Virus genome (UHGV): UHGV-0778869
Source: a virus
Reading direction: 5' to 3' (one strand)
DNA length: 23,187 bases
The notes below the pieces were generated by a model, which was given only the letters and a program-made list of their open reading frames with translations, was not told the DNA's origin and ran no database searches. The position numbers and the translations under genes were made by a program. Below are positions 6,566-11,036 of this stretch, piece after piece. How positions within the stretch are numbered: position 1 is the stretch's first letter; every line of letters begins with the position of its first letter.

Positions 6566-7282
6566 ATGGAAAATAAAAAATCACTGACGACAGAACAGCT
6601 CGAAGACGCTAAGCGGCTTAAGGCTTTGTATGAGTCAAAAAAGAAAGAATTGGGAATAACCCAATACTCAATCGCTGATGAACTGGGTATCACCCAAGGA
6701 GCGGTAGGGCATTATCTTAATGGCAGAAACGCGCTAAACGTTGAGGTCGCATCTGGTTTTGCACGTTTGTTGCAAGTCTCAATTGCTGATTTTAGCCAGT
6801 CAATTGCTGCCAAGGTTGCAGAACAGGCAGAAAGCCTTAAGAGCGATGCCAACGTAAGGTATGCAGGGGAATACAGAGCAGGAAAGAGGTATCCGGTGTT
6901 AAGCAGTATCCAGGCTGGCTCGTGGTGTGAAGCATGCGAACCATACACCATTAAAGACATAGATGTTTGGCTTGAGTCTGACGCGCATATTCAAGGTAAT
7001 GCGTTCTGGCTTAAAGTGGAAGGTGATTCAATGACGGCACCGGTTGGGTTAAGCATTCCAGAGGGAACATTCGTTCTTTTCGATACCGGAAGGGAGGCGA
7101 TCAACGGCAGCTTGGTCATAGCAAAACTTTCTGACTCTAACGAAGCAACATTCAAGAAGCTGATAATCGACGGCGGAAATAAATACCTCAAGGGACTTAA
7201 TCCTGCATGGCCTCTCGTGCCAATCAATGGAAACTGCAAGATTATAGGCGTTGCAATTGAGACAAAACTAAGGCTGGTTTGA
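6566..7282 (+). CDS. cI: CI/C2-type prophage repressor (HTH plus S24 LexA-like autopeptidase, 238 aa)
   Basis: N-terminal HTH (ITQYSIADELGITQGAVGHYLNG); Ala-Gly cleavage site (SIQAGSW), catalytic GDSMTAP and FKKL; C-terminal half close to P22 C2 as recalled. Confidence 0.9.
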   Translation: MENKKSLTTEQLEDAKRLKALYESKKKELGITQYSIADELGITQGAVGHYLNGRNALNVEVASGFARLLQVSIADFSQSIAAKVAEQAESLKSDANVRYAGEYRAGKRYPVLSSIQAGSWCEACEPYTIKDIDVWLESDAHIQGNAFWLKVEGDSMTAPVGLSIPEGTFVLFDTGREAINGSLVIAKLSDSNEATFKKLIIDGGNKYLKGLNPAWPLVPINGNCKIIGVAIETKLRLV

Positions 7283-7299
7283 TCACGCAAGGGGCGATT

Positions 7300-7668
7300 A
7301 TGGTTGGAACCGCTATAGCAAGCTTTTTTGGGATGTTGGCAATCTCGACAATTTACGGCTTAGCGCATGCTTTTATTGCGAAATCTCTATCAGAAAAAAT
7401 AAGCCAGGCTTGGGCGCATAGATCAGCTCGTTTCATGATTCTGGTGATCATAGCAATACAAGGGATATCTGCATTTATCCTCTATGGATCAAGCTTATAC
7501 CTATTGTATCAAGGCGCGACATTTACGCCTTACACCAGTGATTACGGAACTCTATACGATGGTAGTGAAGACATCACTGTGGCTTGGATCGTCTTTGGTT
7601 TATCTATGGCCGTGTCTGTTGTAGCAGACATCATTAAGGTAATTATCGTCTTAACCTTCGCTGACTAA
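7300..7668 (+). CDS. Small polytopic membrane protein (about 122 aa) downstream of cI
   Basis: ATG 7300 with AAGGGG SD (alternative ATG 7279 overlaps the cI stop); three to four hydrophobic helices; same strand as cI. Confidence 0.6.
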   Translation: MVGTAIASFFGMLAISTIYGLAHAFIAKSLSEKISQAWAHRSARFMILVIIAIQGISAFILYGSSLYLLYQGATFTPYTSDYGTLYDGSEDITVAWIVFGLSMAVSVVADIIKVIIVLTFAD

Positions 7669-7754: not shown

Positions 7755-7841
7755 AATATCCTTTGTATTCATTTGCTTATCATTATTTCACCAAAAATAA
7801 ATACCTTGGGTATTTACACAATAAAATACCTACAGTATTCT
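7755..7841 (+). promoter_or_regulatory. OL region: three 15-bp operators (7755-7769, 7800-7814, 7825-7839) overlapping pL
   Basis: AATATCCTTTGTATT, AATACCTTGGGTATT, AATACCTACAGTATT. pL: -35 TTTACA (7813-7818), 17-bp spacer, -10 TATTCT (7836-7841). Confidence 0.6.
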
Positions 7842-7887
7842 TTAGCCATCAGCAGGACGCTGGAAGCCAAACGGAACAGATTGGCAG

Positions 7888-7928
7888 GCTCTTTAACATT
7901 GATGGGATTGTCCCGCCGAAATGCGGGA
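7888..7928 (+). promoter_or_regulatory. nutL: boxA GCTCTTTAACA (7888-7898) plus boxB hairpin TCCCGC-CGAAAT-GCGGGA (7911-7928)
   Basis: Same boxA/boxB as nutR, downstream of pL and upstream of the N-like gene. Confidence 0.7.
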
Positions 7929-8241
7929 ACCAAAGAGTAGTTGGCTTTGGGGTGACGTGAAGTGCAGCTGCACGACGGCAACCGGAAGATAAGCACCCGG
8001 CGCGCCACCGCCAAAGTCAATTCCATAGGCGTTATGCAGCCGCCACCATATTCAAGAAAGCTGCACAAGAGGTAGGAGGATTTATGTGAATACTTACATT
8101 CAATTGAGAGATTAATTAAATAGAACTGATCGAGCAGAGTCCATAAAGGCTCATAAATGCTCTTCCATCCCCGTCTAATTGGCGGGGAAGGAAACAACTT
8201 TGTAATAAAAAAATTCCAAAGTTGTTTCATCGGAGGTCAAC

Positions 8242-8514
8242 ATGACAGTAGTCATTACATATCTGGCTGACGATAACGCCAGAAATCGCCGCAGAGCACG
8301 CAGACAGGCTCAACGTGAACAGGCAATGCAAGAGCAGCGACTGGCGCGAAAAATTGCGCTAAAGCTCTCTGGTTGCGTCAGAGCAGATAAAGCAGCATCA
8401 CTCGGAAGCCTTCGCTGCAAGAAGGCAGATGAATGCAGTGGAAGTATTTGCCTGCCAAACGTAGCCATTTACTCGGCAGGCTACCGGAAATCAAAACAAC
8501 TGACAGCCAGGTAA
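8242..8514 (+). CDS. N-like transcription antiterminator with arginine-rich motif (P22 gp24-like, 90 aa)
   Basis: GGAGG SD; ARM NARNRRRARRQAQREQA near the N-terminus; C-terminal ...YSAGYRKSKQLTAR resembles P22 gp24 as recalled. Confidence 0.8.
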   Translation: MTVVITYLADDNARNRRRARRQAQREQAMQEQRLARKIALKLSGCVRADKAASLGSLRCKKADECSGSICLPNVAIYSAGYRKSKQLTAR

Positions 8515-8517
8515 GTG

Positions 8518-8742
8518 ATGAATCAGACATACATTCCATCATGCTTGAGAAATCTGCCAAAGCAGAAAGCAAAGCCCCGCAAGCAAGCCATAAAGGACGC
8601 TAAGGCAGAGGTTATTGATCAAGCAATACAATTGCTCAGGGAGGAGTTAAGAAGTGGCAAGCTCGAAGGAATGATGATGCCCTATCAGCGCGGATATCTT
8701 TCGGCGATTAGTAAGCTGGAAGTATTGAAGAGTGAATTATGA
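8518..8742 (+). CDS. Hypothetical protein (74 aa)
   Basis: ATG 8518 after AGGTAAG; MNQTYIPSCLRNLPKQKAKPRKQ...; ATGA overlap with the next gene. No family recognised. Confidence 0.5.
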   Translation: MNQTYIPSCLRNLPKQKAKPRKQAIKDAKAEVIDQAIQLLREELRSGKLEGMMMPYQRGYLSAISKLEVLKSEL

Positions 8743-9431
8743 ACTATCTGGAATTTCCGGATGGTTCATTGTTTTGGCAGCAAACCACTTATTTGAGAGG
8801 AATTAATATGTCATCAATCCGCTTAACTACGAGAATGAAAGAGAAAATCGCTCGTAACGCTTTAATTAAGTCTGGGGTTTTCACTGAGCTTGAAGAAGTA
8901 ACAAAGTTAAAGAGCCAGCTTGCACTTGACGCCAGAGTTATTGCGTTTGGCGGTAAAAAGAAAACTGAGGAAGTGGATCAGTTATCATCCAAGTTAGTAG
9001 CTATAAGTGAAGAACTTGAAAAACTGGGATGTTCATTTTACTCATACGATGTTCGTTCTACTTCAATTTATCTGACTGTATCTGGCAGAAGGGTTGGATG
9101 GCTTTCATATGGGGAAGACGGCAACGGCGAAGATATATTGCTCCCTACTCCGACCAAAGATAAATGCATGTTTGACGCAGAACACGAAATAACAAAAAGG
9201 TTTGATGAAATCTGCGCATTGCAACAAAAACTTGAAGCCAAGAAAAAGGATATCGAATCAAATGTATGGGCTGCTTTGAACTCAGTCACAACAGTTAAGC
9301 GACTTATTGAAGTTTGGTCTGAAAGCAAAGAATTGCTACCAAAAGAAGCAGATAAAGCAAGTACAGCACTTCCTGCTTTACGGGTAGAAGATTTGAATAA
9401 GATGATTGGACTTCCTTCCGAGGCCGCATAG
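8739..9431 (+). CDS. Hypothetical protein (230 aa; alternative start 8808)
   Basis: ORF with coupled start; internal ATG 8808 has a GAGAGG SD; stop lies inside the terminator hairpin. No family recognised. Confidence 0.55.
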   Translation: MNYLEFPDGSLFWQQTTYLRGINMSSIRLTTRMKEKIARNALIKSGVFTELEEVTKLKSQLALDARVIAFGGKKKTEEVDQLSSKLVAISEELEKLGCSFYSYDVRSTSIYLTVSGRRVGWLSYGEDGNGEDILLPTPTKDKCMFDAEHEITKRFDEICALQQKLEAKKKDIESNVWAALNSVTTVKRLIEVWSESKELLPKEADKASTALPALRVEDLNKMIGLPSEAA

Positions 9432-10745: not shown

Positions 10746-10851
10746 AACACTTATGGCTATCCAGACTAAATTCACTATCGCCGCTTTTATTGGCGATGAA
10801 AAGATGTTTCGTGAGGCCGTCGAAGCCTACAGAAAATGGAGGTCAAAATGA
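10738..10851 (+). CDS. Hypothetical small protein (37 aa)
   Basis: ATG 10738 overlaps the previous ORF end; MDKTLMAIQTKFTIAAFIGDEKMFREAVEAYRKWRSK; the upstream extension of this frame (10648) overlaps the 48-aa ORF. Confidence 0.4.
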   Translation: MDKTLMAIQTKFTIAAFIGDEKMFREAVEAYRKWRSK

Positions 10852-11036
10852 TTCCGGTAGAACTGGCGAAAACTCCAGAGTTAAGTCGATTAAAAAGAGA
10901 ATATCACATTGCTGAGGCTCGTTACTGGCGTAAAGCGGGAGATAAATCAAAGAAACAACTTTGCTTATGGCAGGCACAAAGAGAGCGCATGAATGAGCGT
11001 GAGTTTCTTTCCTCCCCATCCGAATTACCATTCTGA
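10848..11036 (+). CDS. Hypothetical small protein (62 aa)
   Basis: ATG 10848 with GGAGG SD and ATGA overlap with the previous ORF; MIPVELAKTPELSRLKREYHIAEARYWRKAGDKSKKQL... Confidence 0.5.
   Translation: MIPVELAKTPELSRLKREYHIAEARYWRKAGDKSKKQLCLWQAQRERMNEREFLSSPSELPF

What the first reader, a model, noticed from the sequence alone, without database searches (positions are those of the whole stretch)
7929..8241. Unusually long structured leader between nutL and the N-like gene
About 310 nt separate nutL from the N start with no convincing ORF. The leader contains a strong SD (AGGAGG, 8075-8080) followed by ATG-TGA (8085-8090), a start-stop mini-cistron; a GC hairpin (8170-8188); and a 10-bp inverted repeat (8192-8201 / 8219-8228, 17-nt A-rich loop) ending 3 nt before the N SD. 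This could be a processing or translational control element analogous to the RNase III site in the lambda N leader, or could hide a small RNA.
Basis: inference. Interest (0 to 1): 0.4.

Follow-up and report, generated by a model that had tools for sequence, protein, structure and literature searches.

The report
Optional structured RNA cassette before N
The leader of this prophage's N antiterminator gene is about twice the usual length because a portable 206-base non-coding, hairpin-rich RNA cassette with a conserved "start-stop" ribosome site sits between the lambda-type RNase III stem and the N ribosome-binding site; its function is untested.

Summary
The window is a lambdoid immunity region: cI-like gene, pL, nutL, then N. 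The pL leader is about 394 nt, against 188 nt in phage HK620, which has 98% identical flanks. The whole difference is one discrete 206-nt block, 8022-8227. The block sits between a 19-bp long-range stem (7940-7959/8001-8021) and the N Shine-Dalgarno. That stem is the sequence homologue of the lambda N-leader stem I recall as the RNase III site.

The block is present in CUS-3, HK140 and 159 of 5,426 E. coli genomes. 315 genomes carry the block-less junction. It also occurs in front of P22-type and other N genes, and once in front of a different first gene. It is non-coding. It folds into five hairpins, three of which have compensatory changes. It has no Rfam match, promoter or terminator.

Its AGGAGG-N4-AUG-UGA is invariant across haplotypes that differ by about 29%. 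The 12-bp hairpin next to the N SD does not sequester the SD.

Best reading: an optional cis-acting 5'-UTR cassette that modulates N mRNA translation or stability. The mechanism is inferred.

The parts
7813..7841 (+). pL promoter (-35 TTTACA, -10 TATTCT). Inferred transcript start is A7848 (AUCAGCAGGACGC, the same 5' end as the lambda pL RNA).
   Evidence: Promoter scan. HK620 annotation of the homologous pL/OL sites. Alignment with lambda.
7888..7928 (+). nutL: boxA GCTCTTTAACA 7888-7898 and boxB hairpin UCCCGC-CGAAAU-GCGGGA 7911-7928.
   Evidence: HK620 and HK140 annotations. Fold.
7940..8021 (+). Long-range stem-loop domain. The 5' strand 7940-7959 pairs with the 3' strand 8001-8021 (11+4+4 bp). 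It is the homologue of the lambda N-leader stem recalled as the RNase III site. It is shared with module-less leaders.
   Evidence: Folds of the window, HK620 and lambda leaders. Alignment of the conserved strands.
8022..8227 (+). 206-nt optional non-coding cassette ('module'). It is AT-rich (30-43% GC against 50-63% upstream). Absent from HK620-type leaders; present in CUS-3 and HK140.
   Evidence: Alignments. BLAST distribution. Composition. Non-coding tests.
8011..8021 (+). Left copy of the flanking direct repeat, CCAAAGTCAAT. It is also the base of the 3' strand of the long stem.
   Evidence: the repeat finder D5/D1. In the P22-type variant the repeat is a perfect 14 bp, CAAAGCCATTTCAC.
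8216..8227 (+). Right copy of the flanking direct repeat, CCAAAGTTGTTT. It is also the 3' arm of hairpin H2.
8035..8065 (+). Hairpin Pa: UGCAGC 8035-8040 pairs with GCUGCA 8060-8065. The stem is invariant and the 17-19-nt loop is variable.
   Evidence: RNAalifold and pair counts.
8074..8089 (+). Start-stop minicistron: SD AGGAGG 8074-8079, spacer AUUU, AUG 8084-8086, UGA 8087-8089. It lies inside an 18-nt island that is invariant in all haplotypes.
   Evidence: Sequence. Conservation in sets chosen by other motifs: 63/63, 59/59 and 20/20.
8087..8102 (+). Hairpin Pb (inner): UGAAU/AUUCA, directly after the AUG. The stop codon is in the stem.
   Evidence: No covariation.
8112..8121 (+). Invariant island TTAATTAAAT, predicted to be largely unpaired.
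   Evidence: Alignment A3.
8132..8162 (+). Hairpin Pc: GAGCA-GAG-U-CC / GG-CUC-AUAAA-UGCUC. Four pairs have changes on both sides.
8168..8188 (+). The closing pair covaries (U-A to G-C) and the loop is not conserved.
8191..8228 (+). Two compensatory pairs in the P22-type variant. Most other variants carry one central mismatch that the window lacks.
8232..8514 (+). N Shine-Dalgarno GGAGG 8232-8236 and the N-like antiterminator gene 8242-8514 (90 aa, arginine-rich motif).
   Evidence: ORF list. Pfam PF25694 above its cut-off. HK620 N annotation.

Best explanation
The interval is the distal part of a roughly 394-nt pL leader made of two parts.

Part 1 (7940-8021) is the ordinary lambdoid N-leader long-range stem. 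It is the homologue of the lambda stem I recall as the RNase III site, and in module-less relatives it ends about 10 nt before the N SD.

Part 2 (8022-8227) is an optional, horizontally exchanged, non-coding RNA cassette inserted exactly between that stem and the SD. It folds on its own into five hairpins (Pa, Pb, Pc, H1, H2). It carries a strong ribosome-binding site whose AUG is followed at once by UGA. Its last hairpin (H2) uses a copy of the same CCAAAG... strand that normally precedes the SD, so the immediate surroundings of the N start site are recreated.

Proposed function (inferred, not shown): the cassette acts in cis on the N mRNA as an accessory 5'-UTR domain. It moves the N start site about 200 nt away from nutL and the long stem. 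If RNase III cuts that stem, the cassette becomes the 5' end of the N message. Its hairpins, and a ribosome parked on the start-stop, would then set message stability and N translation. It does not work by sequestering the N SD.
For: Shown:
- Discrete indel with 98% identical flanks against HK620.
- Always found between nutL and the first pL gene: in 3 phage records, 168 places in 159 E. coli genomes, 65 viral contigs and 20 metagenome contigs.
- Found in front of four different downstream contexts: HK620-type N, P22-type N, a third N type, and a 66-aa ORF that precedes N.
- Haplotypes A and B differ at 62 positions plus 6 gap columns, yet sit in nearly identical flanks, and A/B recombinants exist.
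- No codon periodicity and no conserved ORF.
- The structure is better than shuffles (z -4.5).
- 96% of cells are paired against 36-48% in slid controls. Seven pairs have changes on both sides, against 0-2 in slid controls and 1 of 500 shuffles.
- G-U pairs favour the N-sense strand.
- The 18-nt SD-AUG-UGA island is invariant in loci picked by other motifs.
- The long stem is homologous to the lambda N-leader stem.
- RBS opening energy is unchanged by the cassette.
- No promoter or terminator inside.

From the literature: N and Nus factors bound at nutL repress N translation through an RNA loop, and the structured spacer is thought to matter (PMC5725501, citing Wilson 1997 and 2002). Start-stops bind ribosomes in E. 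coli (bioRxiv 10.1101/520783).
Against: - No experimental data bear on function.
- The cassette is dispensable: about two thirds of E. coli prophages with this N start lack it.
- Covariation rests on only about four deep haplotypes. Pa, Pb and the start-stop are invariant, so they say nothing about pairing.
- Predicted RBS accessibility does not change, so no effect on translation is predicted by thermodynamics.
- An SD-start-stop occurs by chance in 21% of shuffled windows.
- No species-representative genome carries the cassette, so its range is narrow.
Confidence: 0.5

Rival explanations
1. Neutral mosaic scar. The 206 nt are a leftover with no present function, for example a diverged partial duplication of the leader or the remnant of a lost small gene whose SD and AUG survive. 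It would be carried along by recombination at the CCAAAG microhomology.
For: - The cassette is optional.
- It is flanked by direct repeats of 7-14 bp.
- It shares short motifs with the upstream leader: TGCAGC(T/C)GC, AGCTGCAC, CGCCACC, CCAAAGT.
- It lies within what the CUS-3 authors annotated as a mosaic 'boundary sequence'.
- Other leaders carry unrelated insertions at other points.
Against: - Two haplotypes about 29% apart keep the same length, the same invariant islands and compensatory changes in three helices.
- The cassette persists in four different leader and N contexts.
- In the P22-type context the 5' arm of H2 has changed together with the replaced 3' arm.
- Junk DNA in a packaging-limited phage genome would be expected to decay or be deleted.
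Confidence: 0.2
2. The inverted repeat next to the SD (H2), alone or with H1, is an RNase III site or a translational operator that controls N initiation directly.
For: - H2 is a perfect 12-bp stem that ends 3 nt before the SD.
- Its pairing is partly maintained by compensatory changes.
- Its core (CUUUG/CAAAG) mimics the base of the upstream long stem.
Against: - The SD and AUG lie outside the stem, and RBS opening energy is the same with and without the cassette.
- 27 of 35 distinct variants carry a central mismatch in H2.
- Twelve base pairs is short for an RNase III substrate, which is usually about two helical turns (general knowledge).
- The true homologue of the lambda stem is upstream.
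Confidence: 0.1
3. The cassette is the precursor of a trans-acting small RNA, released from the leader by RNase III at the upstream stem and by a second cut near H2.
For: - It is a compact, independently folding domain with variable loops and conserved single-stranded islands such as UUAAUUAAAU and CCGCCA.
- Its 5' border coincides with the foot of a likely RNase III stem.
- Old allelic haplotypes could reflect different targets.
Against: - No own promoter, and no intrinsic terminator or U-tail for Hfq.
- No Rfam family.
- No notable complementarity to the rest of the window.
- It would only be made from derepressed pL.
- The strongest conserved element is a ribosome-binding site, which is typical of a cis element.
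Confidence: 0.1
4. A second nut-like or decoy site. The island UGCUCUU resembles the boxA core and is followed by hairpin H1, so it might bind NusB/NusE or another antiterminator.
For: GAUGCUCUU matches 7 of 8 bases of the boxA core and is conserved. A GC hairpin follows 3-5 nt later.
Against: - The island pairs with GAGCA in helix Pc, and the two covary together in L061 (GAACA/UGUUC). That change also breaks the boxA core.
- The H1 loop is not conserved (UAAUU, AAUUC, UUAU, UAUAU), unlike a boxB loop.
Confidence: 0.05
5. Protein-coding. Either the 138-aa antisense ORF 7814-8230, which PGAP annotates in some genomes, or a small sense ORF is a real gene.
For: - The antisense frame is open across much of the cassette in several variants.
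- PGAP calls WP_011478232.1 there.
- HK140_048 is annotated on the sense strand.
Against: - Substitutions show no third-position bias in any frame (8/9/5 and 6/6/4).
- 2-nt indels separate the haplotypes.
- The ORF ends differ or are truncated in the C and D variants.
- The 206-nt deletion in HK620 shifts the frame.
- There is no SD before the antisense ATG: the CCUCC there is the complement of the N SD.
- No Pfam hit.
Confidence: 0.03

Closest known systems
Phage lambda N leader (pL, nutL, long stem recalled as the RNase III site, N SD)
   Same: - Same 5' end (AUCAGCAGGACGC).
- Same order of elements.
- The long-range stem is built from the same conserved strands (GGCUUUGGGGUG... / ...CACC-N-CCAAAG) and ends just before the SD in module-less relatives.
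- N and Nus factors at nutL repress N translation (PMC5725501, citing Wilson 1997). RNase III relieving that repression is recalled from the cited Wilson 2002 paper, which I could not read.
   Different: Here 206 nt of extra structured RNA separate the stem from the SD, which nearly doubles the leader. Lambda and HK620 have no SD-AUG-stop in the leader. Whether RNase III cuts this stem was not tested.
Start-stop minimal ORFs of E. coli (yecJ, hslR; Meydan et al., bioRxiv 10.1101/520783)
   Same: An SD-like sequence, an AUG and an immediately following stop codon. That paper shows such sites bind ribosomes and slightly modulate expression of the host gene.
   Different: Those sites lie inside coding genes, out of frame. 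This one lies in a 5' UTR, 155 nt upstream of the regulated start, in a phage. Ribosome binding here is untested.
BoxA/Nus-factor loop repression of suhB (PMC5725501)
   Same: A boxA-bound Nus complex tethered to RNA polymerase is proposed to occlude a downstream SD through an RNA loop. The authors draw the parallel with lambda N themselves.
   Different: In suhB, repression survived insertions of up to 100 nt. This natural insertion is 206 nt, structured, and carries its own ribosome site. Its effect on loop repression is unknown.
5'-UTR mRNA stabilisers such as the ompA leader (recalled from memory, not checked here)
   Same: Hairpins plus a ribosome-binding region at the 5' end that protect a message from RNase E. 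This is what the cassette would resemble after RNase III processing.
   Different: No sequence relationship, and no decay data for this RNA. It is an analogy of mechanism only.
Mosaic boundary sequences and moron-type optional inserts of lambdoid phages (CUS-3 'bsq5')
   Same: Present or absent between otherwise near-identical genomes, with a different base composition, and exchanged among lineages.
   Different: Morons are transcription units with a gene. This block has no gene, promoter or terminator, and it lies inside a 5' UTR.

Membership tests
Lambdoid N-leader long stem (recalled as the RNase III site) | Long-range duplex located between nutL and the N SD on the pL transcript | tested here: met
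   7940-7959 pairs with 8001-8021 (19 bp, one bulge, one mismatch) in the MFE and centroid folds. The same stem appears in HK620 and lambda.
Lambdoid N-leader long stem (recalled as the RNase III site) | Sequence homology of both strands to the lambda stem (GGCUUUGGGGUG / CACC-N-CCAAAG) | tested here: met
   Alignment of lambda, HK620, ENT47670 and the window.
Lambdoid N-leader long stem (recalled as the RNase III site) | Actual cleavage by RNase III and its effect on N translation | not testable with these tools
   Needs rnc+/rnc- mapping. That the lambda stem is the cleavage site is recalled from Steege 1987 and Wilson 2002. These papers are cited in PMC5371410 and PMC5725501, but I could not read them.
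   It is only a 12-bp local hairpin, absent from module-less leaders, and not homologous to the lambda stem.
nut site (boxA + boxB) | A boxA consensus followed by a boxB hairpin with a conserved loop | tested here: met
   True nutL at 7888-7928. The module's look-alike (UGCUCUU plus H1) fails: the H1 loop is not conserved and the island covaries as a helix strand.
Start-stop minimal ORF | An SD at working distance, a start codon, and a stop codon immediately after it | tested here: met
   AGGAGG-AUUU-AUG-UGA, 8074-8089.
Start-stop minimal ORF | Conservation beyond the neighbouring sequence | tested here: met
   The 18-nt island is invariant in haplotypes A, B, C and D. It is also invariant in 63/63, 59/59 and 20/20 loci selected by other motifs. 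Most of those loci are close relatives.
Start-stop minimal ORF | Ribosome occupancy at the AUG | not testable with these tools
   Needs toeprinting or Ribo-RET.
Small-RNA gene or intrinsic terminator | Own promoter, and a GC stem followed by a U-tract | tested here: not met
   No promoter-like or terminator-like site inside 8022-8241 on either strand. H1 and H2 are not followed by a run of U.
Any Rfam family | Covariance-model score at or above the gathering threshold | tested here: not met
   No hits at gathering threshold over the whole window. Best sub-threshold match is E 1.6 (RsaE, 17.8 bits against 79).
Protein-coding gene | A conserved ORF and codon-position bias of substitutions | tested here: not met
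MITE or insertion sequence | Terminal inverted repeats, and copies at many unrelated loci | tested here: not met
   The ends (TCCATAGG... / ...AAGTTGTTT) are not inverted repeats. Every copy examined lies in a pL leader. Flanking direct repeats of 7-14 bp do exist.
SD-sequestering operator or RNA thermometer | The SD or AUG of the regulated gene is paired within the element | tested here: not met
   H2 ends 3 nt before the SD. SD unpaired probability is 0.39 with the module and 0.40 without it, and opening energy is similar.
Rho-dependent attenuator | A C-rich, G-poor unstructured rut region | tested here: not met
   GC skew inside the module is about -0.16 to +0.38, with no sustained C excess.

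The most novel reading that the evidence does not exclude
The 206-nt block is a previously undescribed family of portable phage RNA cassette. It would be a self-folding 5'-UTR module with a built-in ribosome-loading start-stop, spreading among lambdoid pL leaders by recombination at the conserved CCAAAG strand. It would retune the N autoregulatory circuit, for example by uncoupling N translation from nutL/Nus loop repression and RNase III, or by stabilising the processed N message. That would change the timing of the lysis-lysogeny or induction decision. Its old A and B alleles might confer different settings.
Probability: 0.3. Interest if true: 0.6.

Novelty: new variant of a known kind. Interest (0 to 1): 0.4.

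Why it matters
N is the first gene expressed by a lambdoid phage, and its level gates all delayed-early transcription. In lambda, N is autoregulated through nutL and the leader stem. This window shows a natural, widespread presence/absence polymorphism: about one third of E. coli prophages with this N start carry the block. The polymorphism inserts a conserved structured RNA with a ribosome site exactly between those control elements and the N start. That provides a ready-made natural experiment on how leader geometry and upstream ribosome loading tune an antiterminator. The cassette occurs in the K1-capsule-modifying prophage CUS-3 of extraintestinal pathogenic E. coli. The finding also flags two probable mis-annotations (an antisense 'hypothetical protein' and HK140_048) across this leader.

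Tried and rejected
- Rfam at gathering threshold and at E up to 10: nothing.
- Promoter and terminator scan: only pL, plus one weak antisense terminator-like site in the long stem.
- Protein-coding tests on all six frames: rejected.
- Two genome contigs pattern scans (one genome per species): no true hit, only chance matches in unrelated GC-rich taxa.
- The metagenome scan added 20 near-identical copies and 22 chance hits, with no new haplotype.
- Pattern hits L027, L065, L070, L079 and L080 are chance matches.
- SD sequestration by the cassette: not supported.
- An alternative helix pairing the start-stop SD/AUG with CAUAAAUGCUCUUCC is isoenergetic with Pc only in the window and CUS-3 haplotype. 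It is disfavoured by 3-11 kcal/mol in the others, so it is not a conserved switch.
- Rho rut-like composition: absent.
- Complementarity of the cassette to the rest of the window: only scattered 11-12-mers.
- Prophage anti-sRNAs (AgvB, AsxR): these lie in the pR' moron region, not here (PMC4104026).
- ERIC, MITE or IS origin: no terminal inverted repeats, and a single locus type.
- Literature searches found no description of this cassette. Wilson 2002 could not be retrieved.
- Host of the P22-type (L076) and L061 variants: only indirect. L076's nearest phage relatives are from Cronobacter and Enterobacter.

Full report
**Context.** The window is a lambdoid immunity region read in the leftward-operon direction.
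- A cI-like repressor (HTH plus S24 peptidase) lies at 6566-7282, followed by a membrane ORF at 7279-7668.
- pL is at 7813-7841. nutL consists of boxA (7888-7898) and the boxB hairpin (7911-7928).
- A 90-aa N gene lies at 8242-8514 and matches Pfam N_peptide above its cut-off.
- The region is 98% identical to phage HK620, whose authors annotated pL, OL1-3, nutL and N at the matching positions.
- The transcript most likely starts at A7848. AUCAGCAGGACGC is also the 5' end of the lambda pL RNA. This start is inferred.

**Check of the observation.** Every feature exists.
- The GC hairpin is 8168-8175/8181-8188.
- The inverted repeat extends to 12 perfect pairs, 8191-8202/8217-8228, with a 14-nt A-rich loop. 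It ends 3 nt before GGAGG 8232-8236.
- The leader folds better than all shuffles: z -4.0 for 7848-8262 and z -4.5 for 8022-8262.
- An SD-start-stop by itself is not improbable, since 21% of shuffled windows have one.

**Why the leader is long.** Alignment with HK620 shows a single clean indel.
- HK620 reads ...CCGCCAAAGTCAAT|CATCGGAGGTCAACATG.
- The window has 206 extra bases (8022-8227) at the bar.
- The distance from boxA to the SD is 138 nt in HK620 and in an Stx1a phage, 225 in vB_EcoP-611R6, 342-344 in the window, CUS-3 and HK140, and 475 in an Stx2c phage.
- The leader is therefore a mosaic hot spot, and the window carries one specific cassette.

**Distribution of the cassette.**
- Only CUS-3 (99.5% identical) and HK140 (71%) have it among 50,697 phage records.
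- It is found at 168 places in 159 of 5,426 complete E. coli genomes. The three copies inspected in detail lie just upstream of an N gene.
- 315 genomes carry the cassette-less junction.
- In IMG/VR, 65 contigs carry it.
- No species-representative genome carries it.

**The RNase III analogy belongs elsewhere.**
- In the window, HK620 and lambda, the minimum-energy and centroid folds contain a long-range stem just after nutL. In module-less leaders its 3' strand ends a few bases before the SD.
- In the window this stem is 7940-7950/8011-8021, 7951-7954/8006-8009 and 7956-7959/8001-8004.
- Both strands (GGCUUUGGGGUG... and ...CACC-N-CCAAAG) align among lambda, HK620, the P22-type Cronobacter phage ENT47670 and the window.
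- From memory of Steege 1987 and Wilson 2002, this lambda stem is the RNase III processing site. Those papers are cited in PMC5371410 and PMC5725501, but I could not read them.
- The cassette is inserted exactly at the 3' foot of this stem.

**Nature of the cassette.** It is non-coding.
- Haplotypes A (window, CUS-3) and B (HK140) differ at 62 positions and 6 gap columns, with no third-position excess (8/9/5 and 6/6/4).
- 2-nt indels separate the haplotypes, and no ORF is kept in all variants.
- The antisense 138-aa ORF that PGAP annotates in UTI89-like genomes has no family match, and it starts opposite the N SD.
- The flanks of A and B are nearly identical while the cassettes are about 29% apart, and A/B recombinants exist with the junction at the start-stop. 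The alleles are therefore old and are shuffled into similar backgrounds.

Further haplotypes sit in other contexts:
- downstream of a P22-type nutL (boxB GCGCUGACAAAGCGC) and upstream of a gene-24-like N (L015, L044, L062, L076);
- upstream of a third N type (L061);
- upstream of a 66-aa ORF that precedes N (L041).

In the P22-type context the cassette is flanked by a perfect 14-bp direct repeat, CAAAGCCATTTCAC, which is single-copy in the cassette-less phage ENT47670. In the window the repeat is CCAAAGTCAAT / CCAAAGTTGTTT. The cassette is AT-rich relative to the rest of the leader.

**Structure.** RNAalifold on 35 distinct sequences gives five hairpins.
- Pa: UGCAGC/GCUGCA, with a variable loop.
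- Pb: holds the AUG-UGA.
- Pc: GAGCA.../...UGCUC.
- H1 and H2.

With this structure, 96.1% of cells pair, against 36-48% when the partners are slid. Seven pairs have changes on both sides, against 0-2 in the slid controls and 1 of 500 shuffles. Those seven pairs lie in Pc (4), H1 (1) and H2 (2). Pa and Pb never vary, so they are uninformative. Several G-U pairs would be C-A on the other strand, which favours the N-sense RNA. Only about four deep haplotypes exist, so statistical power is modest.

In H2 the window has a perfect stem. 27 of the 35 variants have a central mismatch there. The P22-type variant changed both arms: C-G became U-A, and a mismatch became G-C.

**Start-stop.** AGGAGGATTTATGTGAAT is invariant in all haplotypes, although the bases on both sides differ. 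Loci chosen by independent motifs all contain it exactly: Pa 63/63, H2 59/59, and TTAATTAAAT...ATGCTCTT...CCCC 20/20. Most of those loci are close relatives. Start-stops are known to bind ribosomes and to modulate expression slightly in E. coli (bioRxiv 10.1101/520783).

**What it does not do.**
- It does not hide the N RBS. SD unpaired probability is 0.39 against 0.40, and opening energy is 7.8-11.0 against 9.4 kcal/mol, with and without the cassette.
- It has no promoter, terminator or rut-like composition.
- It has no Rfam relative.
- An alternative helix between the start-stop SD and CAUAAAUGCUCUUCC competes with Pc in the window haplotype only.

**Interpretation.** These points are shown: the cassette is an optional, horizontally exchanged, structured, non-coding part of the N mRNA, placed between the long leader stem and the SD. 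Its last hairpin re-creates the 'stem strand then SD' arrangement of ordinary leaders.

The function is inferred. It probably acts in cis on N expression. It could lengthen and restructure the RNA loop through which N and Nus factors at nutL repress N translation (PMC5725501). If RNase III cuts the upstream stem, the cassette would form the 5' end of the N message, where its hairpins and a parked ribosome could affect stability.

I give about 0.5 to this general cis-regulatory reading.

**Novelty.** I found no description of this cassette in Rfam or in the searched literature. The kind of element, a regulatory N leader, is well known. I therefore rate it a new variant of a known kind, of moderate interest.

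Noticed in passing
window 8739-9431 (+): An Nmad5-family gene (PF18757, E 9e-69; 'nucleotide modification associated domain 5') sits in the pL operon just after N and a 75-aa ORF. The same family follows N in E. coli strain Es_ST80.
   Followed up: no
window 7814-8230 (-); L004 1320-1709 (-): PGAP annotates an antisense 'hypothetical protein' (WP_011478232.1) that runs across the cassette, nutL and pL in UTI89-like genomes. It has no family hit, no codon periodicity and no SD. It is probably a mis-annotation, as is HK140_048 on the sense strand.
   Followed up: yes
L007 about 1030-1280 (Stx2c phage Stx2_5044): A different insertion of about 250 nt lies directly after boxB. It also carries a strong SD and a tiny ORF (AACAGGAGG-N7-ATG GTG CAC TAA). 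Upstream mini-cistrons may be a recurring feature of long N leaders.
   Followed up: no
L008 and L007 central leader, aligned to window about 7952-8005: The apical part of the long stem-loop is replaced by unrelated sequence in some phages, while the stem strands GGCTTTGGG / CCAAAGTCAAT are kept. That is the pattern expected of a conserved stem with a free-evolving top.
   Followed up: partly
window 8158-8164: The conserved island (G)AUGCUCUU resembles the boxA core and is followed by hairpin H1, so it looks like a nut site. Covariation with GAGCA (GAACA/UGUUC in L061) argues that it is a helix strand instead.
   Followed up: yes
window 8069-8086 with 8152-8169: In the window and CUS-3 haplotype only, the start-stop SD and AUG can pair with CAUAAAUGCUCUUCC (15 of 18 pairs). 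This is isoenergetic with helix Pc. In the other haplotypes Pc wins by 3-11 kcal/mol.
   Followed up: yes
window 8242-8255: The N start codon lies in a small hairpin (AUGAC-AGUA-GUCAU) in every fold, with or without the cassette.
   Followed up: no
window 7852-7864 with 8022-8037: In the full-leader MFE the 5' end of the pL transcript (GCA.GACGCU.GGA) pairs with the first bases of the cassette (UCC...GGCGUU.UGC). The pairing is weaker in haplotype B, and its significance is unknown.
   Followed up: no
window 10952-10963 (+): A third exact copy of the 12-mer GAAACAACTTTG (the 5' arm of H2) lies inside ORF 10836-11036. About 0.003 copies are expected by chance, but it lies in coding sequence with no partner arm nearby.
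   Followed up: partly
L041 3133-3330 (-): In one IMG/VR prophage the cassette and the CATCGGAGGT SD are followed by a 66-aa ORF (MSSRISNEQKDRLCRLLSEFGV...), and only then by N. So the cassette marks the first pL cistron, not N as such.
   Followed up: partly
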